A DNA stretch of 64,000 bases from Patescibacteria group bacterium. Its GTDB lineage: Bacteria > Patescibacteriota > Patescibacteriia > UM-FILTER-42-10. The translations under genes and the position numbers were made by a program. The DNA lies in NCBI GenBank assembly GCA_041666485.1, contig JBAYGW010000003.1:16415-80414 (forward strand). Reading direction: 5' to 3'. The notes under the pieces were generated by a model, which saw only the letters and a program-made list of their open reading frames with translations, was not told the DNA's origin and searched no databases. Position 1 is the stretch's first letter. Each line of letters opens with the position of its first letter. Below are positions 8,322-60,650 of this stretch, one piece after another.

Positions 8322-8516
8322 TTAGCCGACCTTTTCCCATGTGGCATCATCGGCAACTTCATCAATGTCTACTTTTTTCTGGGGAATCAGGCACGAAACA
8401 CATTCGGGAAATTTTTCGCCTTTTTCCAATTTTGACTTATAGCCGCACGGCATACATAAATATTCTCCCGTCTCCGGAGCTTTATCACCGGCGTAATAGT
8501 ACTTTTTAATAGGCAT
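8322..8516 (-). CDS. small zinc-ribbon protein
   Basis: CxxC…CxxC in 64 aa; no spurious-frame alternative with better features. Confidence 0.35.
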   Translation of the reverse strand: MPIKKYYYAGDKAPETGEYLCMPCGYKSKLEKGEKFPECVSCLIPQKKVDIDEVADDATWEKVG

Positions 8517-8531
8517 ACCTCCTCCTAATTG

Positions 8532-9098
8532 TTAAGAAGTAATATTTTCTCTGCCCCATTTAAGGGTTTTTGTCATCCAGATTAATTCTGTTAAAAAAGT
8601 ATCAATTCTTACATCGTATGATTCATCTAAAACGTTACCATCATCGTCAAAAAGTGTATCAACCTTTGAGAAGTTCAAGTCAGTCTTAATCATTGATAAT
8701 TGCAGGGCCTTCATAACAGATGCCAAACTTTCAACTGCCCTTGCCCCGCCAAAACCACCGTCTGAAACACTGCATAAGCCCACCGATTTATGCCGGTATT
8801 CCGGTAACAGCATATCCAGGGCCATTTTTAAACTACCCGGGAAACTGTGATTATACTCGGGTGATACAATAATCAAACCGTCCGCTTTTTCTACTAATTC
8901 TTTAAAATCAGAATTTTTTTTACCCAGACCGCGCCCTTCATTACCCGCAAAATTTAATTTTTTTACATCAATGATTTGCGTTACAATCCCCGGTTTCTCC
9001 CTGACTCTTTTTTCCAAATATTTCGCGACTTTTTCACTTTCGCGTCCTTCTCTGGTTGTACCAAGAATAATCGGCAAATATAGAGCATCTTCTGACAT
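8532..9098 (-). CDS. NAD(P)H-dependent FMN reductase family protein
   Basis: LIIVSPEYNHSFPGSLKMALD flavodoxin-like reductase motif. Confidence 0.7.
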   Translation of the reverse strand: MSEDALYLPIILGTTREGRESEKVAKYLEKRVREKPGIVTQIIDVKKLNFAGNEGRGLGKKNSDFKELVEKADGLIIVSPEYNHSFPGSLKMALDMLLPEYRHKSVGLCSVSDGGFGGARAVESLASVMKALQLSMIKTDLNFSKVDTLFDDDGNVLDESYDVRIDTFLTELIWMTKTLKWGRENITS

Positions 9099-9115
9099 AT
9101 AATTATAATTAATTA

Positions 9116-9814
9116 TTAAATATATTGTTGTGGATCAATCCAATTATTCAGTTCTGCTTCTGTCTGGACATATCCTTTGATATTAATTTCAGTTCCTTTA
9201 TGTATCCCGAAATGCAGATGCTTTCTTTCCCCGTCTGTTTCCGCGCTTTTGTCCGCACCCAGTAACCCTATTATATCCCCTTTTTTGATATTTGATCCAA
9301 CTTCAAATTTTACACTAGCTATCATTAAATGACCGTAAATTACAGTAACTCTCTGACCATTCAAATCACATTCCTGGACAATCACTCCCCCATAACCGCT
9401 TGCGGTAGTTTTCATTCTAAGCGATCCGGTACAAAAAGACTTAACCTCCACATCACTGTTTAGTTCGTCAGCAAATACCTCAAAGTCAGCTCCGGTATGA
9501 TATCCGGAAAATCTCTCCGGCTGTACCGGCGAATTAGTCTTCGTTATTTTAATACCGAATGGTTTTTTTATAATTCTTTCTTTTGGTTGATCCAAAGGAC
9601 TCTGATAACCCTCATTACTTACCTGATTATTTAAATTTTGGTTTAAATCGGCATTTGCAATGTTTGTAATTTCGGAATTTACCAATACACTATTATTTAA
9701 AATTGTACTGTTACCAATGTTCTGGTTTTTCTTAATCTGTAAAAAAACAAACACACCAAAAAATATAAACATTATCAGCAAACCATAGAGAACCCTTTTG
9801 AATCCTTTACCCAT
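9116..9814 (-). CDS. M23 family metallopeptidase (LytM-like), membrane-anchored
   Basis: N-terminal TM; HTGADF…HLHFGIH zinc ligand motifs. Confidence 0.7.
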   Translation of the reverse strand: MGKGFKRVLYGLLIMFIFFGVFVFLQIKKNQNIGNSTILNNSVLVNSEITNIANADLNQNLNNQVSNEGYQSPLDQPKERIIKKPFGIKITKTNSPVQPERFSGYHTGADFEVFADELNSDVEVKSFCTGSLRMKTTASGYGGVIVQECDLNGQRVTVIYGHLMIASVKFEVGSNIKKGDIIGLLGADKSAETDGERKHLHFGIHKGTEINIKGYVQTEAELNNWIDPQQYI

Positions 9815-9956: not shown

Positions 9957-10307
9957 TTAATGAATATGTTGATCTAAATGATTATCCAGCATTTCAACCT
10001 GTTCTTTGTCACTGATCTCAAGCATATAGCAAACGCACTTGCCCATTTTATACTTAGTTACAATCCGGGAGCGCTCTAGCATACTTAGCTGGTGCGACAC
10101 TGCGCTGATACTGATACCGAGCACAGCAGCGATATCTGAAACACAGATCTCTTCATAATGTTTTAATAACAGCAATATTTTTATCCTGGTCGGATCAGAC
10201 AAAACATTGCATAGATCACTTTGGATTTTTATGTGTTTACCGTTTCTTTTCAGCCAATTCTGATTTTTTAATATTTGCTTTTGCGTTAACATACTACGTT
10301 TTATCAT
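9957..10307 (-). CDS. ArsR/SmtB family transcriptional regulator
   Basis: wHTH segment ISISAVSHQLSMLERSRIV. Confidence 0.7.
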   Translation of the reverse strand: MIKRSMLTQKQILKNQNWLKRNGKHIKIQSDLCNVLSDPTRIKILLLLKHYEEICVSDIAAVLGISISAVSHQLSMLERSRIVTKYKMGKCVCYMLEISDKEQVEMLDNHLDQHIH

Positions 10308-10439
10308 TTGCTCAAGTGTCTTAATGATATAGCAATTTGTTACCGCCTGTCAAGTCGGGTCACAACTCCTCATAAAGCCAATCTTGACAATAACGTACTT
10401 TTGTATTACTTTCTTTGTATGTTGATCTTTGAAACAACG

Positions 10440-10660
10440 ATGTAGGTGGGAGGACCGCCGTACCAAAAAGCAAGCAGTAATGCTACCCGCTGGGTGACAT
10501 TGACTGACGGGATTCGTCTCGTCCGTGGGCAGATGTTGCCCTCTGGGATGCTAAAGTGCGCGTCCTCCCACCCCACTTTCTTCTACAAATTGCTTTGTGC
10601 GGACGCTTAAGTCCGTTTGTGATAGTCACCCCACAACCCGATCCTACAGGGAGGTACGCC
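10440..10660 (+). other. GC-rich highly structured non-coding segment (candidate leader/riboswitch-like RNA) upstream of GC-rich ORF
   Basis: 11-13 bp outer stem GGTGGGAGGAC…GTCCTCCCACC enclosing several short hairpins incl. AGCA-GUAA-UGCU (GNRA loop). Confidence 0.3.
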
Positions 10661-10760
10661 AAATGTACTCGTGGAGTTACGCACGCCACGGGTTCGGTTG
10701 ACCTGCGATCTTCTCCGTCTGAGTAGTCAATGCCCACGACTCAAAATGAGGAGATCTCGC

Positions 10761-11126
10761 ATGTGCGACAAGACCCAATGGAACGCGGGGCACGTCCTCG
10801 TCGTCCAGACCGTGTTCCCGACCGACAGCGAATCCCCCGGCGGTTTCTCGCGCAGCGTCATGTTGTGCACCTGTGGGAGCTGCCTGAGCTCCAACAACCC
10901 GATGACGCCCGCAGGGCCCCTGCACAGCTACCTGAAACGGTGCTTTGAGCAGGACGCTGCTGATGCGGTGGCGGGGGGCCTTGAGCCGCCCGTCAACCTC
11001 CTGAGCATGCCGAAGCTTGACCCGCGCACCGGCGCCGAGAAGCCGACCAAGAAGCAGGCAGCCATGCTGATCAAGCAGATCGGTCCGGACGCCTTCGCTT
11101 CCGACATCGTCGCGGCCTACGCCTAG
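10761..11126 (+). CDS. hypothetical Cys-containing protein in GC-rich island
   Basis: AGGAG RBS 7 nt upstream of ATG; strong GC3 bias; followed by clean terminator. Confidence 0.45.
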   Translation: MCDKTQWNAGHVLVVQTVFPTDSESPGGFSRSVMLCTCGSCLSSNNPMTPAGPLHSYLKRCFEQDAADAVAGGLEPPVNLLSMPKLDPRTGAEKPTKKQAAMLIKQIGPDAFASDIVAAYA

Positions 11127-11158
11127 CGTAGGAGAAGAAGTACATCGTTGAAGGACAT

Positions 11159-11192
11159 CGGGCGAATCCACTGGATTCGCCCATTTTTTTAT
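11159..11192 (+). terminator. rho-independent terminator
   Basis: GGGCGAATCCA-C-TGGATTCGCCC followed by TTTTTTT. Confidence 0.75.
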
Positions 11193-11276
11193 TATGAATA
11201 TTGACAGAAGAAGTGGAATACAATACCATTGTTAACGCCCGCTGATTGTAAGACATCCTTCATGGAGGAGGTGGAC

Positions 11277-11573
11277 ATGTCCCAAAGTCGGCTGGTGATG
11301 TTCTTAATGCTCTTTCTCGGACTGACTCTCTCTCCCCTGTTTCTTGTCGTTGCGGCGGTTATGTTCCTTGCTCCCTCGGAGCCGAAGCTCATCCCCCGGG
11401 ATGATGAAGGGAGACGTTGCTGTCCCGTCTGCCACTCCAGACACTATCTCATCTTCCCGACTCGGCAGAAGAGCTACTTCGGCCATTCCTGGATTTCAGC
11501 ATTTTGCAGAAACCAAATGGAATACCGCTACCAGGACTGCACAATGAGCTGGAAAGAATCCGGGGACGGCTAA
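11277..11573 (+). CDS. hypothetical membrane-anchored Cys-rich small protein
   Basis: GGAGGAGG RBS; N-terminal TM helix then CCPVCH…C…C. Confidence 0.4.
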   Translation: MSQSRLVMFLMLFLGLTLSPLFLVVAAVMFLAPSEPKLIPRDDEGRRCCPVCHSRHYLIFPTRQKSYFGHSWISAFCRNQMEYRYQDCTMSWKESGDG

Positions 11574-11623
11574 ACCGCGTTGATGTTCTATCAGCGCTTT
11601 TTTTATATATTTATTTGACGTTA

Positions 11624-11959
11624 CTATCTGAAGATTTTAGACAGAAACCAGTTTACAATAGCCAGTACAATACCAAACAGCAATGCCCACCAAAAGCTTG
11701 CTATGGAAAATCCCGGAACAATTAACGCCATCAGCATAACCAATAATGCGTTAATCACCAGCGTAAACAAGCCAAGCGTCAGAATATTGATCGGCAGAGT
11801 AAAAATTACTAAAACAGGTTTGATAAATATATTAATCAGACCCAATACCAACGCCCCGACAAAAGCGACAAAAAAACCATCAACCGCTACGCCCGGTAGC
11901 AGATAGGCTGTGATCAGGATTGCGACCGTTGAAATTAGCCATTTAATAAGGATTTTCAT
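11624..11959 (-). CDS. DUF360 / holin-family-4-like small membrane protein
   Basis: 111 aa, 3-4 TM, LPGVAVDGFFVAFVGALVLGLIN pattern. Confidence 0.5.
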   Translation of the reverse strand: MKILIKWLISTVAILITAYLLPGVAVDGFFVAFVGALVLGLINIFIKPVLVIFTLPINILTLGLFTLVINALLVMLMALIVPGFSIASFWWALLFGIVLAIVNWFLSKIFR

Positions 11960-15392: not shown

Positions 15393-15451
15393 ATGTTTTA
15401 TAATAAAGATTTATATGTATATATTATATCATTTTATATAAAAGTATAATA

Positions 15452-15491
15452 GTATAAAAATGGCTCTGACAACGAATTCGTCGCCAGAGCC
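15452..15491 (-). terminator. rho-independent terminator
   Basis: GGCTCTG…CAGAGCC stem followed by T-run on minus strand. Confidence 0.6.
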
Positions 15492-15514
15492 TTGAATGAA
15501 ACAGGAGCGCTATA

Positions 15515-15895
15515 CTACGGACAGCTGCCGATCCACGGGGTCGGACTGCCCGTGTAGTCGAATGCCAGGCAACCGAGATGCGTCGTACCACCACCGAGGG
15601 TCTTCGACGGCCAGGTGTTGGACTGAATGTTGATGTCATTCACCCATGCCTTGCCGATGTAACCGGAACCAGACGGAAGTCCCGAGACAGAGATCAGTCG
15701 TTGCCCGAGCGGGAGCGTGACCATCGTGTTCTGCCAACGGACTGTGCTCCCCTGGATGATCTGCACCGTGTACGTGAATGATGATGGACCTCTCACCGTC
15801 ACCTGAGCAGTGCCGGCATGGGCGACGCTAACAGATCCGATGGACACCATCACGACGAGGACAAACAGCAGGATGACACTCTTGAAGATCTTCAT
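15515..15895 (-). CDS. small secreted protein (signal peptide, two Cys), GC-rich
   Basis: AGGTGG RBS; MKIF…VAHAG signal peptide; GC-rich codon usage. Confidence 0.5.
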   Translation of the reverse strand: MKIFKSVILLFVLVVMVSIGSVSVAHAGTAQVTVRGPSSFTYTVQIIQGSTVRWQNTMVTLPLGQRLISVSGLPSGSGYIGKAWVNDINIQSNTWPSKTLGGGTTHLGCLAFDYTGSPTPWIGSCP

Positions 15896-16459
15896 GATCT
15901 TCCACCTTTCATGCGAGTTTGCCTATGCTGTAATGACCAATGAAGCTACGATGAACTCTTACCTCCTTTCTCAAATAGGAAACGAACGATGAATCATTCC
16001 TGGTGTAACCAAGAACGTTATTAAAAGTATGTATGAGTATCAAAATTATTGCAAGAATAAACTTGCGTTATGAAATCTCGGAATCCAAACTACTTTCTCT
16101 TTTTAGAGTGATGATTGAGTGTCCACCAACATCGAAATCAAGATTTTGATGTATTAATGCGTACAGTTTTTTTATAATATGACCATCTTAGACAAACCCA
16201 GACAATATGATTACCGATAATATCAGACAAAATAAATGCCCTTGGAATGAAGCAGAAATGTAAACACTCACAAATGTGCTGTAAAAAATATTTCAATTTG
16301 TGATTATTTCTGTGGGATTGAATATCTAGATAATGTTTTGTGTTGTTATCCCGATAAAAATACTTTGCTAGATAATAAACAAAACAAATAATTTTATTCC
16401 TTAACGCTCGCTCTGGACGCCGGAATATCCTATTCTGTTAGCTGATTGCCGGATAAATT

Positions 16460-22839: not shown

Positions 22840-22880
22840 ATAAAAAACCTGCCCAACACGTGAGTTGTGTTTAGACAGGG
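22840..22880 (-). terminator. putative terminator after purH
   Basis: imperfect GC stem CCUGUCUAAACAC/GUGUUGGGCAGG followed by U-run on minus strand. Confidence 0.4.
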
Positions 22881-22907
22881 TCCTTTTGAAAAATGTGCAA
22901 ACGCCCT

Positions 22908-24497
22908 CTAGTGCCAGAACATCCGGCGATCGGTAAAGAGCATCGCGATGCCCAGTTTGTCCGCGGACCTGATTGAATCCTGGTCGCGAATTGAACCGCC
23001 CTGCTGGACGATCGTCTTGACGCCGAACGTGTCCGCCAGGCGCACGCAGTCGTCAAACGGGAAGAAGCTGTCGGACACCAGCACAGCATGGTGCAGATCC
23101 ATATTCTGCGCCTCCATGTTGTTCATGGCCTGCTCCAGAGCAAGCCGTGCCGACTTGATCCGGCTGGTCTGGCCGTTGCCGATGCCGATCGTCTGCCCGT
23201 TCCAGACCACGATGACCGAGTTGGACTTGACGTGCTTTGACACATTGCAGCCGAAACTGATATCCGACCAGTAGCGGTCCTTGACACCGAGCTTGGTGAC
23301 GCACCGGAACGACCTGCAGTCAAACAGCTCGGTGTCCATCAGCTGGACCACCATGCCGCCGGTCACCGGCTTGAAGTTCAGCGTGCCGAACGGCATGCTG
23401 CAGGAAAGCTCCCCACCCAGTTTGAACAGCGGGGTCTCTGCCCTGGCGCGCTTCTTGGTGATGTGTTCCATCGCCTCCGGCGAAAAATCCAGCGCGACGA
23501 TCGCGTCCACCTTCTGCACGCAGATGGTTTCAGCGACTTCCTCCGTCACCTGGAAGTTGAGTACCACCACCCCGCCGAAAGCCGATTCCGGATCGCACGC
23601 CAGTGCGTTCTGGAAAGCCTTCAGCGGACTGAAGCTGTCCATCGCCACTCCGCACGGCGTACCATGCTTGATGATCGCGACTGCGAATTCCGGGGACAGG
23701 TCGCGGACCGTCTCAATGCCGGCATTGATATCCAGCACAGTGGTGGCCGAGAGCGGCTTGCCCCAGATCTGCTTGGCGTTTGCCGCGGTGTAGCAGTTCA
23801 GACCCGGCAGTTCGTAGAACGCACCCGGCTGATGCGGATTCTCACCGTAGCGCAGATCACACTTCTTCTGCAGACGCTGAACCATCCGATCCGGGAAGCT
23901 GGGGAACTCAAGGCGTTCAGCCAGCCAGTCGGAGATCGTGGCGTCATACCACGCAGTGTGAAGAAACGCCTTGTAAGCCAGTTGCAGACGTTCCAGCGCG
24001 TTGAACCCGACATCTTCCGAAAGACACCGAATCACAAAGCCGTACTGCTCTGGTGAAGTGACCACCAGCACATGGCTGTGATTCTTCGCGGCCGCGCGGA
24101 TCAGTGCCACGCCGCCGATATCAATCTGCTCAATCGCGTCCCGAAATGCCACGGTCCGATCAGCCACCGTCTCTTCAAACGGATACAGGTTGACCACGAC
24201 CATGTCAAACGGGTAGATGCTGTGATCAAACAGCTCCTGCATGTGCGCGTCGCTGTCCTGATCCGCCAGGATCCCGCCGTGGATCTTCGGATGCAGAGTC
24301 TTCACCCTGCCACCCAGAATTTCCGGGAAACCGGTCACCTCCTCTACCGTTCGCACGGGAATTCCGGCTTCCACCAGGTGTCTGGACGTTCCGCCGGAAG
24401 ATACAATCTCCCAGCCATGTTCAAACAGCACGGTGGCAAGCTCAACAATGCCGCGCTTGTCGGACACGCTGATCAGAGCGCGCTGATTTGCTCGCAT
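22908..24497 (-). CDS. purH: bifunctional AICAR transformylase / IMP cyclohydrolase
   Basis: ALISVSDKRGIVELA (MGS domain), GGTSRHLVEAGIPV, KTLHPKIHGGIL; AAAGGAG RBS at chosen start; gene conspicuously GC-rich. Confidence 0.9.
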   Translation of the reverse strand: MRANQRALISVSDKRGIVELATVLFEHGWEIVSSGGTSRHLVEAGIPVRTVEEVTGFPEILGGRVKTLHPKIHGGILADQDSDAHMQELFDHSIYPFDMVVVNLYPFEETVADRTVAFRDAIEQIDIGGVALIRAAAKNHSHVLVVTSPEQYGFVIRCLSEDVGFNALERLQLAYKAFLHTAWYDATISDWLAERLEFPSFPDRMVQRLQKKCDLRYGENPHQPGAFYELPGLNCYTAANAKQIWGKPLSATTVLDINAGIETVRDLSPEFAVAIIKHGTPCGVAMDSFSPLKAFQNALACDPESAFGGVVVLNFQVTEEVAETICVQKVDAIVALDFSPEAMEHITKKRARAETPLFKLGGELSCSMPFGTLNFKPVTGGMVVQLMDTELFDCRSFRCVTKLGVKDRYWSDISFGCNVSKHVKSNSVIVVWNGQTIGIGNGQTSRIKSARLALEQAMNNMEAQNMDLHHAVLVSDSFFPFDDCVRLADTFGVKTIVQQGGSIRDQDSIRSADKLGIAMLFTDRRMFWH

Positions 24498-24589
24498 TTC
24501 TGCTCCTTTCGTGGCAAACCGTGAAGCTTTCACCGCAAACAACCGTTTGGGAAACGGTTTTTTAACTTATCACTCCGACTGACGCAAGT

Positions 24590-55653: not shown

Positions 55654-55810
55654 ACCGTCTTATTGTACCAAATATCAATGTTTCTGGCGACTTGTCATTA
55701 CAGTCACGTAGCAACCCTGACTTGCCAGAGTAAATGAAATATGGTAAAAACAAAACTGTGCCCATCTTCAGGGCGCAAATGACCAAAACCCGTTTTTGGG
55801 AGGTATTGGT

Positions 55811-56923
55811 ATGGACCAACGATTTGTCGATCTGGCGAGAGTCATGGTCGGCCATTCCACAAGGGTCTCAAAGGACGATATCGTCATCGTCAAGAGCACG
55901 GAGGTAGTGCCGCCCGACATGATCTTCGCGGTGATCCAGACCGTGCGCGAAGCGGGGGGCTCCGTGATCCCCTGGCGCTACGATCCGCGCATTGACTTCG
56001 AGGCATTCAGGGGTGGCACCGCTCACCAGCTGCGTGCCTGGGGCGCCGGCCAGTTTACCCAACTGGCTGCCGCCAACTGCTTCATTGAGTTCCGGCCGTT
56101 CAGTAACCAGCTCGACGGCAACGACGTGCCGGCAGCGGACATGCAGCGCCACGGCGAGGTGTTCGTTCCGCTGACGGTTGAACAGCGCGTGGAACGCACC
56201 CGCTGGGTGCTGACCCGCTGGCCGACGCCGGCCAACGCCCAGTTGGCCGGGATGTCCACGACGCAGTTCGAAGAGTTCTTCTTCAAGGCATGCCTCGCCG
56301 ACTACGGCGCCATGGCCAAGGCCGTGAAGCCGCTCGTCGCCCTGATGGAGCGGACCGACCAGGTCCAGATCCAAGGGCCGGGCGACACCGATCTCACTTT
56401 CAGCATCAAGGGAATTCCGATCATCGCCTGTACCGGATCGCACAACATCCCCGACGGCGAAGTGTTCACGGCGCCGGTTCGCGATTCCATGAACGGCGTG
56501 ATCGCCTACAACACCCCCACGGTCAACTCCCGCGGCCAGCGGTTCACCAATCTCCGCTTCGTGGTCAAGGCGGGCAAGATCGTGGAGGCGACCTGCGAGA
56601 CGGGTGACCAGACGGCGCTGGACGCCTTCCTGGACACCGACGAGGGTGCCCGCTACTTCGGCGAATTCGCCCTCGGCATCAACAACTTCGTCACGGGTGT
56701 GATCGGCGAAACGCTGTTCGACGAGAAGGTCGGTGGAAGCCTCCACTTGACGCCCGGCCGGTGCTATGAGCAAGCGCCGAACGGGAACCAGTCGGCCAAC
56801 CACTGGGACATCGTCTGCGATCAGCGCGGGGCTTCCGGTGGTGGGGAGATCTACTTCGACGGCAAGCTGGTCCGCAGCAAAGGGCTTTTCATCCCGAAGA
56901 GCCTCCACGCGCTCAATCCCTGA
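55811..56923 (+). CDS. M29-family aminopeptidase (aminopeptidase T/AmpS-like), GC-rich
   Basis: NIPDGEVFTAP, LDTDEGARYFGEFALG match Thermus aminopeptidase T; GGGAGG RBS; antisense 364-aa ORF has no motifs. Confidence 0.8.
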   Translation: MDQRFVDLARVMVGHSTRVSKDDIVIVKSTEVVPPDMIFAVIQTVREAGGSVIPWRYDPRIDFEAFRGGTAHQLRAWGAGQFTQLAAANCFIEFRPFSNQLDGNDVPAADMQRHGEVFVPLTVEQRVERTRWVLTRWPTPANAQLAGMSTTQFEEFFFKACLADYGAMAKAVKPLVALMERTDQVQIQGPGDTDLTFSIKGIPIIACTGSHNIPDGEVFTAPVRDSMNGVIAYNTPTVNSRGQRFTNLRFVVKAGKIVEATCETGDQTALDAFLDTDEGARYFGEFALGINNFVTGVIGETLFDEKVGGSLHLTPGRCYEQAPNGNQSANHWDIVCDQRGASGGGEIYFDGKLVRSKGLFIPKSLHALNP

Positions 56924-57035
56924 CCGCACAACCGGCGCATTGTCAACTAAGCCGTCTAGCACGGCTATTCGCTCTTGAAACGGACCCGCGAACTGTGACC
57001 TTAACAGTTCAAAGGTCCATTTTTTTTATAATCTA

Positions 57036-59861: not shown

Positions 59862-60141
59862 AAAGTAATTGTAACGCGCATATATTCTAGGTCAAGGTGC
59901 CTGTATAACTACTGCCCGTTCGAATCCCAATAATTACAAATGTCTTAATTCATTATTTATCCTGAGCACAACAGGAGCGCACAAGGCATAGATTTGACAA
60001 GTCTAGCTAGTCCTCGCCGAGACAGAAAAAAGTGGGGCCCCCGACCCGCTTTTGGCGGGTTGGGGAAAGGGGCACAGACCCGCAACCTAAAACAACCAAG
60101 CTTGCTTGGTTGTGACAGGTGAAGGGTCTGATGACCCGTGG

Positions 60142-60212
60142 CTGGGGAGGAGGGATTCGAACCCCCGGTGACGGGACCAGAACCCGTTGCCTTACCGCTT
60201 GGCTACTCCCCA
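60142..60212 (-). tRNA. tRNA-Gln (anticodon CUG)
   Basis: Hand-folded cloverleaf: U1-A72 acceptor TGGGGAG/CTCCCCA, D-loop AGCGGTAA, anticodon stem ACGGG/CCCGT with loop TTCTGGT, T-loop TTCGAAT; close to E. coli tRNA-Gln. Confidence 0.85.
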
Positions 60213-60564: not shown

Positions 60565-60650
60565 GAACCCCCGGTGACGGGACCAGAACCCGTTGCCTTA
60601 TCCGCCTCGGCTCGACGCCTCGTCGAGACGGGCCGCTTGGCTACTCCCCA
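60565..60650 (-). pseudogene. truncated tRNA-Gln copy (nt 1-56) with 32-nt palindromic insertion in D-loop; no T-arm/3' acceptor
   Basis: 54 nt identical to intact tRNA-Gln split by insert tccgcctcggCTCGACGcctCGTCGAGacggg; diverges after T-loop C56. Confidence 0.5.

What the first reader, a model, noticed from the sequence alone, without database searches (positions are those of the whole stretch)
10440..11600. GC-rich island with a highly structured leader and two small Cys-rich ORFs between arsR and a DUF360 gene
About 1.2 kb of roughly 55-60% GC. A ~130-nt element with a 13-bp closing stem and several internal hairpins (one with a GNRA loop) precedes a 122-aa Cys-containing ORF with a perfect AGGAG RBS and a textbook terminator. 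A second ORF encodes a TM-anchored CCPVCH… Cys-rich peptide. There is no similarity to anything I recognise. It could be a mobile cassette, a toxin or bacteriocin-like pair, or a riboswitch-controlled gene.
Basis: seen in the sequence. Interest (0 to 1): 0.55.

Follow-up and report, generated by a model that had tools for sequence, protein, structure and literature searches.

The report
Conserved structured leader before orphan genes
A few related Patescibacteria carry, next to an SmtB-like repressor gene, a GC-rich cassette in which a conserved ~320-nt folded RNA leader with a 12-codon mini-ORF hides the ribosome-binding site of an orphan Cys-rich protein gene; this looks like a new regulatory RNA, but the signal it responds to is unknown.

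Summary
Window 10440-11600 is 56% GC in a 40% GC Patescibacteria genome and lies between an SmtB-like arsR gene and a DUF360 gene. The same cassette sits at the same locus in five distinct lineages. ORF1 (10761-11126, 121 aa) and ORF2 (11277-11573, 98 aa, TM plus zinc ribbon) show coding-type substitution patterns. Neither matches any family or fold.

The leader is the best-conserved part of the locus: 80-85% nucleotide identity where ORF1 protein is only 42% identical. It matches no Rfam family. Its 135-nt 5' domain is a three-way junction with a GNRA loop and has compensatory changes.

- a conserved 12-codon uORF (10663-10701) with a perfect GGAGG;
- an anti-SD/SD helix with four compensatory pairs;
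- a helix between the uORF interior and the ORF1 start codon;
- a conserved 5'-3' end pairing of the ORF1 mRNA.

Best reading: a new, clade-restricted cis-regulatory leader that controls ORF1 translation, probably through uORF translation, on top of ArsR control of transcription. The signal is unknown. Only five sequences in two clades exist, so covariation is suggestive rather than statistically proven. The mobile-cassette and toxin/bacteriocin readings found no support.

The parts
9957..10307 (-). ArsR/SmtB-family repressor gene, transcribed divergently from the cassette. It is the most conserved protein of the locus.
   Evidence: PF01022 E=3e-14. NF033788 E=4e-20. Closest solved structure is SmtB 1r1t, E=1e-12. 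Adjacent to the cassette in every lineage where the upstream sequence is available.
10324..10353 (-). Promoter-like site for arsR (TTGACA-18-TATCAT).
   Evidence: 11 of 12 consensus matches. The -35 box (GTCAAG on the + strand) is conserved in alignment A1.
10384..10412 (+). Promoter-like site for the leader-ORF1 transcript (TTGACA, 17 nt, TACTTT).
   Evidence: CTTGACAAT is invariant in window, L001 and L004, and TTGACA is present in L013/L014. The -10 box and the transcription start are inferred only.
10435..10444 (+). 5' arm (CAACGAUGUA) of the end-to-end closing helix of the ORF1 mRNA.
   Evidence: Perfect 10-nt complement of 11141-11150 (I11). The core CAACGAU is invariant in 5 lineages. 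Pairing probability is about 1.0 in full-transcript folds of window, L001 and L004.
10442..10576 (+). 5' domain, a three-way junction. P1 10445-55/10562-72. Junction stem 10469-72/10549-52. P2 10473-76/10481-84 with a GNRA loop. P3 10492-501/10532-41. P3a 10506-11/10518-23. Internal loop CGUGGGCA 10524-31.
   Evidence: z = -5.5. 40 pairs, 95.5% of cells paired against 47-56% when slid, 5 compensatory pairs, 0 of 500 shuffles reach the covariation score. P1, P2 and P3 are recovered in independent folds of all 5 lineages. 80-85% nt identity between window and L013. L001 carries an extra hairpin in the P3a loop.
10574..10584 (+). CAC followed by a U-rich tract (UUUCUUCU) directly after the P1 stem. 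Possible weak intrinsic terminator or attenuator.
   Evidence: CACUUU is invariant in 5 lineages, and L001 and L013 have longer U runs. Function is inferred only.
10599..10616 (+). P4 hairpin (GCGGAC/GUCCGU), variable in sequence.
   Evidence: Three different helix sequences at the same place in different lineages: GCGGAC/GUCCGU, GCGGGU/GCCCGC and GUACGCA/UGCGUAU. Present in the MFE of 4 of 5 lineages.
10650..10701 (+). SD GGAGG (10650-54) plus a 12-codon uORF, 10663-10701 (MYSWSYARHGFG, stop UGA). It contains hairpin P7 (10668-74/10686-92).
   Evidence: Same SD, spacing (7-8 nt), length, frame and stop in all 5 lineages. Apart from ORF1, it is the only SD+start pair that is conserved in all five leaders. 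No indels occur inside it. There is no codon-position bias, so translation is inferred and not shown.
10680..10685 (+). 5' strand of long-range helix PKa (CGCACG, uORF codons 6-8). It pairs with UGUGCG at 10762-10767, which covers the ORF1 AUG and codons 2-3.
   Evidence: 6 pairs, 97% of cells paired against 3-77% when slid, 2 compensatory pairs (CG to UA, GC to AU).
10707..10756 (+). ORF1 SD-sequestering hairpin. The anti-SD GAUCUUCUC (10707-15) pairs with GAGGAGAUC (10748-56). It holds inner hairpin P9 (10725-28/10738-41) with the invariant loop UGCCCACG (10731-38).
   Evidence: P8 has 9 pairs, 98% of cells paired, and 4 pairs with compensatory changes. It is in the MFE of window and L013. 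It is also retained in the partial sixth lineage L021.
10761..11126 (+). ORF1, a 121-aa orphan protein. Conserved residues are Cys2, the C36-x-C38-x2-C41 cluster, the NPxTPxGxLH motif and a C-terminal AAY.
   Evidence: Substitutions by codon position are 12/14/28 and 18/16/40. 8 homologs, all from Patescibacteria or metagenomes. No Pfam, NCBIfam, PHROG, PADLOC or PDB sequence hit. AF2 pLDDT is 93.8, but there is no fold match. GC3 is 0.88.
11141..11150 (+). 3' arm (UACAUCGUUG) of the closing helix, in the ORF1 3' UTR.
   Evidence: ACAUCGUUGA is invariant in window, L001, L004, L007, L013 and L014 while the flanking 3' UTR varies. Pairs with 10435-44.
11160..11190 (+). Intrinsic terminator of ORF1 (10-bp stem followed by U7).
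   Evidence: The stem is conserved, with an A-U to G-C exchange between lineages.
11201..11229 (+). Promoter-like site for ORF2 (TTGACA-17-TACCAT).
   Evidence: ATATTGACA and the -10 region are conserved in all lineages.
11277..11573 (+). ORF2, a 98-aa protein with a hydrophobic N-terminal anchor and a zinc-ribbon-like domain (CCPxC ... CxxC).
   Evidence: Substitutions by codon position are 19/16/33 and 23/24/48. Homologs are listed. There is only a weak, non-significant resemblance to the Rpb9 zinc ribbon (E=0.2). The window copy has Tyr (11529-31) where the homologs have the third Cys.
11577..11597 (+). Terminator-like hairpin after ORF2.
   Evidence: Conserved in alignment A1.
11624..11959 (-). 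DUF360 / Phage_holin_4_2 membrane protein gene, convergent with the cassette. It marks the right border of the island.
   Evidence: PF04020 E=1e-33. Syntenic in L001, L004, L007, L013 and L014.

Best explanation
This is a vertically inherited, clade-specific expression cassette of a small group of Patescibacteria. An SmtB-like ArsR repressor is transcribed divergently from a roughly 750-nt GC-rich mRNA. That mRNA consists of a ~320-nt structured leader, the orphan Cys-cluster protein ORF1 and a terminator. A second, separately promoted gene for a membrane-anchored zinc-ribbon protein (ORF2) follows.

The leader is a cis-regulatory RNA that keeps ORF1 translation off by default. The ORF1 SD is paired with an upstream anti-SD (helix P8). 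The ORF1 AUG region is paired with the interior of a 12-codon uORF (helix PKa).

Ribosomes translating the uORF would melt PKa. Ribosomes terminating at its UGA, 5 nt before the anti-SD, would also melt P8. ORF1 translation would therefore be coupled to uORF translation or stalling.

The 135-nt three-way-junction 5' domain is the candidate sensor. It could bind a ligand, a metal or a protein, and it would set how much transcript or uORF translation occurs. A 5'-3' end pairing closes and probably stabilises the mRNA.

Shown: conservation, synteny, coding status of the ORFs, helices with compensatory changes, SD and AUG sequestration, and absence from known families.

Inferred: transcription start, uORF translation, direction of the switch, the sensed signal, ArsR control, and a metal or thiol-related role for the proteins.
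For: - Synteny: arsR | leader-ORF1 | ORF2 | DUF360 occurs in five distinct lineages.
- Conservation: the leader is more conserved than any neighbouring gene. The 5' domain is 80-85% nt identical between window and L013, against arsR 68-71% nt and ORF1 42% aa. It shows no codon periodicity.
- 5' domain structure: 95.5% of cells paired against about 50% when slid, 5 compensatory pairs, and 0 of 500 shuffles reach the score. P1, P2 and P3 are recovered in 5 of 5 independent folds. z = -5.5.
- 3' domain structure: 27 pairs, 96% paired against 33-50% when slid. There are 6 compensatory pairs, 4 in the anti-SD/SD helix and 2 in the uORF-to-AUG helix.
- uORF: SD, spacing, length, frame and stop are identical in 5 lineages.
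- Strand: G-U pairs fix the RNA to the + strand.
- 5'-3' arms: both are invariant, and pairing probability is about 1.0 in three lineages.
- Repressor: the ArsR is SmtB-like.
- Known precedents for each mechanism:
  - erm-type leader-peptide attenuation (PMC11264731);
  - the mgtA leader with the mgtL uORF (PMC11552253);
  - 5'/3' UTR pairing in icaR and hbs (PMC3868564, PMC5737220).
Against: - Statistical power: only five leader sequences exist, in two clades (3+2). Each compensatory change may be a single event, and significance at R-scape level is impossible.
- Alignment bias: the 3'-domain alignment was made by hand to fit the helices.
- uORF coding signal: the uORF shows no codon-position bias, and its middle five residues change non-conservatively. 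The GGAGG, AUG and UGA could be conserved for RNA structure alone.
- No ligand, no transcript data and no operator were identified.
- Weaker lineages: P8 and P9 are not in the MFE of every lineage. The 5'-3' helix has probability of only 0.2-0.35 in L013/L014.
- Possible terminator: P1 followed by a U-rich tract could terminate transcription, making the 5' domain a separate small RNA.
- Unexplained composition: the persistent GC3 of ORF1 (0.62-0.88 in 8 lineages) is not explained. A conserved structure inside the CDS was not supported (covariation term +1.25).
Confidence: 0.5

Rival explanations
1. This is a classical riboswitch with no role for the uORF. The 5' three-way junction binds a small molecule or metal ion, and ligand binding switches P1 and the downstream helices directly. 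It would act either through the P1/U-tract terminator or through the SD-sequestering hairpin. The 'uORF' is then a by-product of structural sequence constraints.
For: - The aptamer-sized domain is conserved and has a GNRA loop that stays GNRA (GUAA or GAAA), invariant internal loops and compensatory pairs.
- The P1 3' strand (CCUCCC) is also complementary to the GGGAGG at 10649-54. This pairing changes in step in L013 (CUCCUU with AAGGAG).
- The uORF has no codon-level signature (and my count of its substitutions).
- A terminator-embedded aptamer has a precedent in the HMP-PP riboswitch (PMC6478431, listed).
Against: - There is no Rfam match even at E<=10.
- The RNA is found before only one gene family, so context gives no ligand clue.
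- The perfect GGAGG-N7/8-AUG and the indel-free 39-nt frame in all lineages are hard to ascribe to chance.
- P1 is predicted to be very stable (p 0.77-0.95), so strand exchange is not thermodynamically favoured.
Confidence: 0.2
2. The structures are not a switch. They make a compact, nuclease-resistant mRNA: a 5' stem domain, 5'-3' end pairing and a strong terminator. Regulation would be purely transcriptional, through ArsR. SD occlusion would only tune a low constitutive translation rate.
For: - The end-to-end helix lies next to P1 and to the terminator, so both RNA ends are buried.
- The whole unit is GC-rich, with z-scores of -2.9 to -5.5.
- The hbs mRNA is a precedent in which a 5'/3' UTR interaction controls stability (PMC5737220).
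Against: - Stability elements rarely need 135 nt of invariant internal loops plus a junction conserved better than the neighbouring genes.
- Compensatory maintenance of both SD and AUG sequestration argues for translational control.
- A conserved CDS structure was not supported.
Confidence: 0.13
3. The 5' domain is a separate ~150-nt small RNA gene ending at the P1/U-tract. It would act in trans or bind a protein. ORF1 would be expressed only by read-through.
For: - A strong stem is followed by the invariant CACUUU and further U/C-rich sequence in all lineages.
- The 5' domain is the most conserved segment.
Against: - The U tract is short and interrupted (UUUCUUCU).
- No promoter-like site was found between 10576 and ORF1 by the scan (a consensus scan, so only weak evidence of absence).
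- The 3'-UTR arm pairs with the 5' end of the long transcript.
- Model R1 finds no second copy anywhere in the 325 kb held.
Confidence: 0.1
4. The island is a relic of horizontally acquired or mobile DNA: a GC-rich donor cassette, or an IS200-sized element bounded by the 10-bp inverted repeat 10435-44/11141-50. The structures would be leftovers of that element.
For: - GC is 0.56 against 0.40, and ORF1 GC3 is 0.88.
- A perfect 10-bp inverted repeat encloses 716 bp holding one small ORF behind an RBS-occluding leader, which resembles the layout of IS200 (for the repeat; the IS200 comparison is my own knowledge).
- The same window holds other GC-rich single-gene islands, purH and an M29 peptidase.
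Against: - The unit is single-copy and fixed at one locus in five lineages whose flanking genes have saturated dS.
- There is no transposase domain.
- There are no homologs in any GC-rich organism among 1.84 billion representative proteins.
- There are no phage, plasmid or viral hits.
- One 10-mer inverted repeat is expected by chance in 1.45 kb.
- High GC3 persists at 40% protein identity, so this cannot be recent transfer.
Confidence: 0.05
5. ORF1 and ORF2 are a toxin/immunity or bacteriocin-like pair.
For: Both are small and Cys-containing, and one is membrane-anchored. Both are orphans.
Against: - There are no PADLOC or PHROG hits.
- ORF1 has no signal peptide or leader, and the genes are separate transcription units.
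- ORF2 is replaced by a lipoprotein gene in L021.
- Linkage is to a metalloregulator and, in other lineages, to thioredoxin, glutaredoxin and DsbD genes.
Confidence: 0.02

Closest known systems
Leader-peptide translation attenuation (ermC/ermB, cat, cmlA leaders; also secM-secA)
   Same: A short uORF with its own SD lies just upstream of a hairpin that sequesters the SD of the regulated gene. A ribosome on or at the end of the uORF would open that hairpin (PMC11264731).
   Different: The uORF peptide is unrelated to any known arrest peptide. The regulated gene is an orphan Cys-cluster protein, not a resistance or secretion factor. A 135-nt structured domain precedes the uORF. The ORF1 AUG is additionally paired with the uORF interior. 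Stalling and its inducer are untested.
mgtA / mgtCBR leaders of enterobacteria (long structured leader combined with the short uORFs mgtL, mgtM and mgtP)
   Same: A leader of several hundred nt combines a conserved folded sensor-like domain with a very short translated ORF. Translation of that ORF chooses between alternative helices (PMC11552253).
   Different: There is no sequence or structure similarity (no Rfam hit). The output here appears translational (SD and AUG masking) rather than Rho-dependent or transcriptional. The taxon and the regulated genes are unrelated.
SmtB-SmtA type divergon (an ArsR/SmtB metalloregulator divergent from a small Cys-rich metal-binding protein gene)
   Same: An SmtB-like repressor (best PDB hit 1r1t, E=1e-12; NF033788) is transcribed divergently from a small protein with a conserved Cys cluster.
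   Different: ORF1 is not a metallothionein. It has 4 conserved Cys in 121 aa, a confident alpha/beta fold and no BmtA-type hit. No 12-2-12 operator was identified. SmtA has no long structured leader.
5'/3' UTR base pairing in bacterial mRNAs (S. aureus icaR, B. subtilis hbs)
   Same: A conserved 3'-UTR segment is complementary to the 5' end of the same mRNA and is predicted to pair with it (PMC3868564, PMC5737220).
   Different: Here the 3' arm pairs with the extreme 5' leader and not with the SD. Both arms are invariant, so no covariation is available. No RNase data exist.
Orphan riboswitch candidates found as GC-rich intergenic regions in AT-rich genomes (Breaker-lab GC-IGR searches)
   Same: A GC-rich, conserved, multi-helix 5' UTR element with a GNRA loop and covarying stems sits upstream of one gene in an AT-rich genome (PMC6429828 and PMC8632094, listed).
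   Different: It is not among the 4227 Rfam 15 families. It is known from only five sequences of one narrow CPR clade, and it is associated with a uORF.

Membership tests
Any described RNA family (Rfam 15, 4227 models, including T-box, NiCo, Mn, Mg, ykkC, introns, 6S and SRP) | Covariance-model match at or near the gathering score | tested here: not met
   The window at gathering threshold gives only tRNA-Gln. The sensitive scan of 10200-11800 at E<=10 gives only chance hits to SNORA7 and suhB over the terminator. The homologous loci L013, L014, L002 and L005 give nothing in the leader.
Riboswitch (generic) | Conserved aptamer-like domain whose helices are supported by covariation | tested here: inconclusive
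   40 pairs, 95.5% paired, 5 compensatory pairs, 0 of 500 shuffles. However, there are only 5 sequences in 2 clades, so the statistical power is too low for a firm call.
Riboswitch (generic) | Expression platform that can occlude the SD or form a terminator | tested here: met
   The anti-SD/SD helix P8 has 4 compensatory pairs, and helix PKa covers the AUG. P1 is followed by a U-rich tract.
Riboswitch (generic) | Direct, specific ligand binding that changes the fold | not testable with these tools
   This needs in-line probing, ITC or SHAPE with candidate ligands.
Leader-peptide translation attenuator (erm/cat type) | Short uORF with a functional SD and start, conserved in frame and length | tested here: met
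   GGAGG, 7-8 nt spacer, AUG, 12 codons and UGA in all 5 lineages. Apart from ORF1, it is the only SD+start pair that is conserved in all five leaders.
Leader-peptide translation attenuator (erm/cat type) | The uORF overlaps or abuts RNA segments whose pairing masks the downstream SD | tested here: met
   The uORF stop at 10699-701 is 5 nt before the anti-SD at 10707-15. uORF codons 6-8 pair with the ORF1 AUG region.
Leader-peptide translation attenuator (erm/cat type) | Translation of the uORF, and regulated stalling by an inducer | not testable with these tools
   There is no codon-position bias in the 39 nt, and the peptide middle varies (SYARH, CHAHR, SYTHR, SYSHR). Toeprinting or ribosome profiling is needed.
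SmtB/ArsR-metallothionein divergon | ArsR/SmtB-family repressor adjacent and divergent | tested here: met
   Present in all lineages where the upstream sequence is available.
SmtB/ArsR-metallothionein divergon | The target gene encodes a metallothionein (very Cys-rich, about 50-60 aa, BmtA-type) | tested here: not met
   ORF1 is 121 aa with 4 conserved Cys (C2, C36, C38, C41) and a folded alpha/beta model. It has no family hit.
SmtB/ArsR-metallothionein divergon | Imperfect 12-2-12 inverted-repeat operator in the shared promoter region | tested here: inconclusive
   A 17-bp palindrome ATCtTTGaaaCAAcGAT lies at 10425-41, but its spacing is not kept in L013/L014. Its right half is better explained as the 5' arm of the RNA closing helix.
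IS200/IS605-like or MITE-like mobile element | Transposase (Y1 HUH) or multiple dispersed copies | tested here: not met
   No PF01797 or any transposase hit for ORF1. There is one copy per genome at a fixed locus, and no viral or plasmid copies.
Zinc-ribbon protein (ORF2) | Two CxxC knuckles about 30-35 residues apart | tested here: inconclusive
   CPxC and CQDC are present in all homologs. The window copy has YQDC, so the third Cys is lost. The similarity to the Rpb9 ribbon is only E=0.2.
Anti-phage defence or toxin-antitoxin system | Match to a known defence or toxin protein model | tested here: not met
   PADLOC gives 0 hits for ORF1 and ORF2 from two clades.

The most novel reading that the evidence does not exclude
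The 135-nt three-way-junction domain is the aptamer of a new riboswitch class confined to a Patescibacteria clade. Given the SmtB-like partner and the thioredoxin, glutaredoxin and DsbD neighbours, it may sense a metal ion or a thiol/redox-related metabolite. It would act in an unusual two-step way: it gates transcription read-through or translation of a 12-codon uORF, and uORF translation then unmasks the SD and AUG of an orphan Cys-cluster protein. All of this would happen within an mRNA closed by 5'-3' pairing and kept GC-rich by selection.
Probability: 0.2. Interest if true: 0.75.

Novelty: new variant of a known kind. Interest (0 to 1): 0.5.

Why it matters
CPR/Patescibacteria are almost unexplored for RNA-based regulation, and very few structured RNAs specific to them are known. 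This locus offers a compact, testable unit of about 330 nt of RNA with clear mutational targets: the uORF AUG, the anti-SD, the uORF-to-AUG helix, P1 and the 5'/3' arms. It combines features normally seen separately, namely an aptamer-like domain, a leader peptide, double masking of the start site and mRNA end pairing.

If the domain binds a ligand, it would be a new riboswitch class. It could also reveal the function of two orphan protein families that partner with an SmtB-like regulator.

The persistence of GC3 at 0.6-0.9 in one gene of 35-40% GC genomes, at divergences where neighbouring genes are saturated, is an unexplained compositional anomaly worth a population-genetic look.

If the structures only stabilise the mRNA, the finding is a modest addition: a clade-specific orphan operon.

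Tried and rejected
- **Known RNA family.** Rfam at gathering and at sensitive thresholds, on the window and on four homologous loci, found nothing. The T-box idea came from GGGAGGUAC resembling the T-box sequence. I dropped it because there is no T-box model hit and the regulated gene is unrelated.
- **Known protein families and folds for ORF1 and ORF2.**
  - Pfam, NCBIfam, PHROGs, PADLOC and PDB sequence profiles gave nothing, apart from a non-significant Rpb9 ribbon hit for ORF2.
  - The afdb50 library was unavailable.
- **More homologs.**
  - The full HMMER scan of 1.84 billion representatives gave only 3 real relatives, plus a weak hit to a 1514-aa repeat protein (P0011, E=2e-5). I regard that hit as compositional.
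  - The genome and metagenome DNA-pattern scans returned only the same five lineages plus chance hits L010, L012, L016 and L020.
  - Viral scans were empty or at chance level. 22 hits to a 16-mer were all rejected by model R1.
- **Conserved RNA structure inside the ORF1 CDS**, as an explanation for GC3 and low dS. RNAalifold gave a covariation term of +1.25 with many broken pairs, so this is not supported.
- **Antisense overlapping gene.** The open antisense frame is the expected by-product of avoiding TTA, CTA and TCA codons, and its extent differs between lineages.
- **Low dS of ORF1** (0.41-0.57 against >=1.1 in the flanks) as evidence of recent cassette exchange. The estimate is confounded by extreme GC3, and overall nt identity is not higher than in the flanks.
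- **Helix GGUUGAC/GUCAAU**, proposed by RNAalifold. GUCAAU sits at a different position in L013/L014, so I rejected it.
- **Loop-loop pairing CGUGGGCA (10524-31) with UGCCCACG (10731-38).** Both segments are invariant and perfectly complementary. However, about one 8-mer complement is expected by chance in 330 nt and there is no covariation, so I keep it only as a speculation.
- **Flanking repeats or target-site duplications** around the island: none were convincing.


Full report

The window averages 40.5% GC. Positions 10440-11600 are 56% GC, peaking at 66% inside ORF1.

Window 10440-10575 folds into one closed domain at -64.6 kcal/mol. The z-score is -5.5 against 200 dinucleotide-preserving shuffles, none of which folds as well. 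The closing stem is an 11-bp perfect inverted repeat, 10445-55 with 10562-72 (I8). It is extended by 2+4 pairs across single-nucleotide bulges. One internal hairpin carries a GUAA loop.

| Feature | Coordinates | Notes |
|---|---|---|
| ORF1 | 10761-11126 | 121 aa; GAGGAG 7 nt upstream; terminator 11160-82 followed by U7 |
| ORF2 | 11277-11573 | 98 aa; own promoter-like site and own terminator |
| arsR | 9957-10307(-) | PF01022, NF033788 |
| DUF360 | 11624-11959(-) | PF04020 |

**2. Organism and distribution.** ORF1 is identical to an NCBI 'Patescibacteria group bacterium' protein.

Protein look-ups, one genome scan and one metagenome scan recovered the same arrangement in five distinct lineages:
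- the window itself;
- L001 (the same locus also appears as L002, L003, L006, L011 and L018);
- L004 (also L005 and L019);
- L013 (also L009 and L015);
- L014 (also L017).

L007, L008 and L021 are partial.

The order is always arsR(-), leader-ORF1, ORF2, DUF360(-). The exception is L021, where a lipoprotein gene replaces ORF2. In every lineage the island is GC-rich against a 35-40% background.

Nothing related exists in the phage, plasmid or viral collections. A full HMMER scan of 1.84 billion representative proteins found only this small family.

The cassette is therefore rare, clade-restricted, single-copy and syntenic. It is not an assembly artefact and not an active mobile element.

**3. 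The two ORFs are genes, and orphans.**

Substitutions against L001, L004 and L007 concentrate at third codon positions. For ORF1 the counts by position are 12/14/28 and 18/16/40. For ORF2 they are 19/16/33 and 23/24/48. The only indel in ORF1 is 3 nt long.

ORF2 is a hydrophobic N-terminal anchor followed by a CCPxC...CxxC zinc-ribbon-like domain. The window copy has Tyr in place of the third Cys.

**4. The leader is the most conserved part of the locus.**

| Segment | Window vs L013 |
|---|---|
| Leader 5' domain | 80-85% nt identity |
| Whole leader | 75-79% nt |
| arsR | 68-71% nt, 72-76% aa |
| ORF1 | 40-42% aa |
| ORF2 | 55% aa |

Among the three closer lineages the leader is 83-85% identical with no codon periodicity. 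The inter-ORF spacer is 66-71%. No Rfam family matches, even in sensitive mode and on four homologous loci.

**5. Structure of the 5' domain (10442-10576).**

It is a three-way junction made of these helices:
- P1;
- a junction stem (AGCA/UGCU);
- P2, with a loop that stays GNRA (GUAA or GAAA) and a closing pair that runs A-U, G-U, G-C across lineages;
- P3, 10 bp;
- an apical P3a.

The P3a sequence differs in four ways: GACGGG/CUCGUC, GGCGAG/CUCGCC, GGCGAGC/GCUCGUC and ACGAGG/CCUCGU. Its loop ranges from 3 nt to an inserted 31-nt hairpin in L001.

On alignment A7, 40 pairs are 95.5% paired against 47-56% when the partners are slid. Five pairs carry compensatory changes, and 0 of 500 shuffles reach the covariation score. 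Independent folding of each lineage recovers P1, P2 and P3 in 5 of 5. Several G-U pairs place the RNA on the + strand.

A covariance model of the domain finds only these five copies in 325 kb of held sequence. It finds none elsewhere in the window.

Caveat: there are five sequences in two clades. The counts are suggestive, not proof.

**6.

At 10650-54 there is a perfect GGAGG. Eight nt later comes an AUG that opens a 12-codon frame ending in UGA (10663-10701, MYSWSYARHGFG). The SD, spacing (7-8 nt), length, frame and stop are the same in all five lineages. The peptides are MYSW[S/C][Y/H][A/T/S][R/H][H/R]GFG. Apart from ORF1, this is the only SD+start pair that is conserved in all five leaders. 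No indel falls inside it, although loops elsewhere in the leader vary in length.

Five nt after its stop lies the anti-SD GAUCUUCUC (10707-15). It pairs with the ORF1 SD region GAGGAGAUC (10748-56). In L013/L014 the same helix is CAAUCUCU(G)/(C)AGAGGUUG. That gives four column-wise compensatory pairs in nine. The partial sixth lineage L021 keeps it as UCAUCUC/GAGGAUGA.

In addition, uORF codons 6-8 (CGCACG, 10680-85) pair with UGUGCG (10762-67), which covers the ORF1 AUG and the next codons. This helix co-varies: CGCACG/UGUGCG becomes UGCACA/UGUGCG and then UACACA/UGUGUA, with two compensatory pairs.

Over the 27 pairs of the 3' domain, 96% of cells are paired against 33-50% when slid. There are 6 compensatory pairs against 0-2 in the slid controls. 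That alignment was hand-fitted to the helices, which favours them.

**7. A conserved 5'-3' end pairing.**

CAACGAUGUA (10435-44, just 5' of P1) is the perfect complement of UACAUCGUUG (11141-50), which lies between the ORF1 stop and the terminator (I11). The cores CAACGAU and AUCGUUG are invariant in every lineage, although the surrounding 3' UTR varies.

Folding of the full ~760-nt transcripts gives this helix a probability of about 1.0 in window, L001 and L004, and 0.2-0.35 in L013/L014.

One 10-mer inverted repeat is expected by chance in 1.45 kb. The argument therefore rests on its conservation and its position at the two transcript ends, not on the match itself. Precedents are icaR and hbs (PMC3868564, PMC5737220).

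**8. Most likely mechanism.** This part is inference built on sections 4-7.

- *Transcription* is probably controlled by the divergent SmtB-like ArsR. Its closest solved relative is SmtB, E=1e-12.
- *Default state.* The ORF1 start site is locked twice, at the SD by P8 and at the AUG by PKa.
- *Unlocking.* A ribosome translating the uORF must melt PKa. A ribosome terminating or pausing at UGA 10699-701 would cover the anti-SD. ORF1 translation would thus be coupled to uORF translation or stalling, as in erm/cat leaders (PMC11264731) or the mgtL-mgtA leader (PMC11552253).
- *Sensor.* The 5' junction domain is the candidate sensor.
  - P1 is followed by the invariant CACUUU and a U/C-rich tract, so P1 could also act as an attenuator.
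  - The P1 3' strand is complementary to the uORF SD and changes in step with it in L013, which suggests strand exchange. P1 is predicted to be very stable, though.
- *Stability.* The end pairing next to P1 and the terminator would bury both RNA ends and stabilise the mRNA.
- *Signal.* It is unknown. The context hints at metal or thiol/redox homeostasis: an SmtB-like regulator here, and thioredoxin, glutaredoxin, DsbD-type and SEC-C genes beside arsR in L004 and L009. FMN reductase and a zinc-ribbon protein lie beside arsR in the window.

**9. Weak or unexplained points.**

- The uORF shows no codon-position bias, and its centre changes non-conservatively. Its translation is inferred from SD, AUG, frame and stop only.
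- P8 and P9 are not in the MFE of every lineage.
- ORF1 keeps GC3 at 0.62-0.88 in eight lineages while arsR has 0.34-0.42.
- ORF1 dS is 0.41-0.57 where the flanking genes are saturated at >=1.1.
  - This is not recent transfer, because dN and overall nt identity are like the flanks.
  - The dS estimate is confounded by composition.
  - A conserved CDS structure was not supported.
  - The open antisense frame is a by-product of codon choice.
- What maintains the GC richness therefore remains unexplained.

**10. Comparison with known systems and novelty.**

In function the leader resembles leader-peptide attenuators and the mgtA-type 'structured leader plus uORF'. The gene arrangement resembles an SmtB-SmtA divergon. 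The end pairing resembles icaR and hbs.

It is a member of none of these families. It matches no Rfam family, ORF1 is not a metallothionein, and it has no transposase. I rate it a new variant of a known kind: a new, narrowly distributed leader RNA with an unusual combination of features, in front of two orphan protein families.

Interest is moderate (0.5). It is a well-defined candidate in a poorly explored phylum, but the sequence set is small and the signal unknown.

Noticed in passing
window 22851-24550 (-), 55751-57000 (+), 15451-15900 (-): Three more sharply bounded GC-rich single-gene islands (0.56-0.62 GC) lie in the ~40% GC window. They are purH (AICARFT/IMPCHase, PF01808), an M29 aminopeptidase (PF02073) and a 126-aa protein with an N-terminal hydrophobic segment and no family hit. 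They look like horizontally acquired genes and show that GC-rich islands recur in this genome.
   Followed up: partly
window 60139-60212 (-) and 60565-60600: The tRNA-Gln(CTG) gene has an exact 36-nt direct repeat of part of the tRNA 406 nt away (60159-60194 and 60565-60600). This is the pattern left by an element integrated at a tRNA (att-site duplication), or a partial tRNA duplication.
   Followed up: no
window 11529-11531 (ORF2 codon 85): The window's ORF2 has Tyr (TAC) where all six homologs (L001, L004, L007, L008, L013, L014) have the third zinc-ribbon Cys (TGC; EYRCQDC becomes EYRYQDC). An identical protein is present in an independent JGI contig (P0005), so this is not a sequencing error.
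   Followed up: partly
L014 / L017 (JAHJBM010000022.1): This contig is deposited as 'Candidatus Micrarchaeota archaeon'. It nevertheless carries the same arsR-leader-ORF1-ORF2-DUF360 locus as the Patescibacteria contig L013, with a near-identical 5' domain. It is probably mis-binned.
   Followed up: no
L008 1-335; L021 430-802: L008 has a frameshift or in-frame stop in the 5' part of ORF1, which is either a pseudogene or an assembly error. In L021, ORF1 (53% identical) keeps the leader 3' end and the terminator but is followed by a lipoprotein-like gene instead of ORF2. ORF1 and ORF2 are therefore separable.
   Followed up: partly
L004 1275-4934; L009 1-937; window 8322-9814: The genes co-directional with arsR differ by lineage but share a redox or metal flavour.
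- L004: thioredoxin, a DsbD_TM-AhpC/redoxin fusion and a cupredoxin.
- L009: SEC-C, glutaredoxin and thioredoxin.
- Window and L001: an M23 peptidase, an FMN reductase and a 64-aa zinc-ribbon protein.
   Followed up: partly
window 10425-10441: A 17-bp imperfect palindrome ATCtTTGaaaCAAcGAT lies just downstream of the predicted promoter and overlaps the 5' arm of the RNA closing helix. It could be an ArsR operator, but the spacing is not conserved in L013/L014, which instead have CTAATgaaaATTAG nearby.
   Followed up: partly
P0011 (1514-aa protein, not in the window): The ORF1 profile (residues 47-102) weakly matches six repeats of a large repetitive, probably surface-exposed protein (E=2e-5). 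The match is probably compositional but was not examined further.
   Followed up: no
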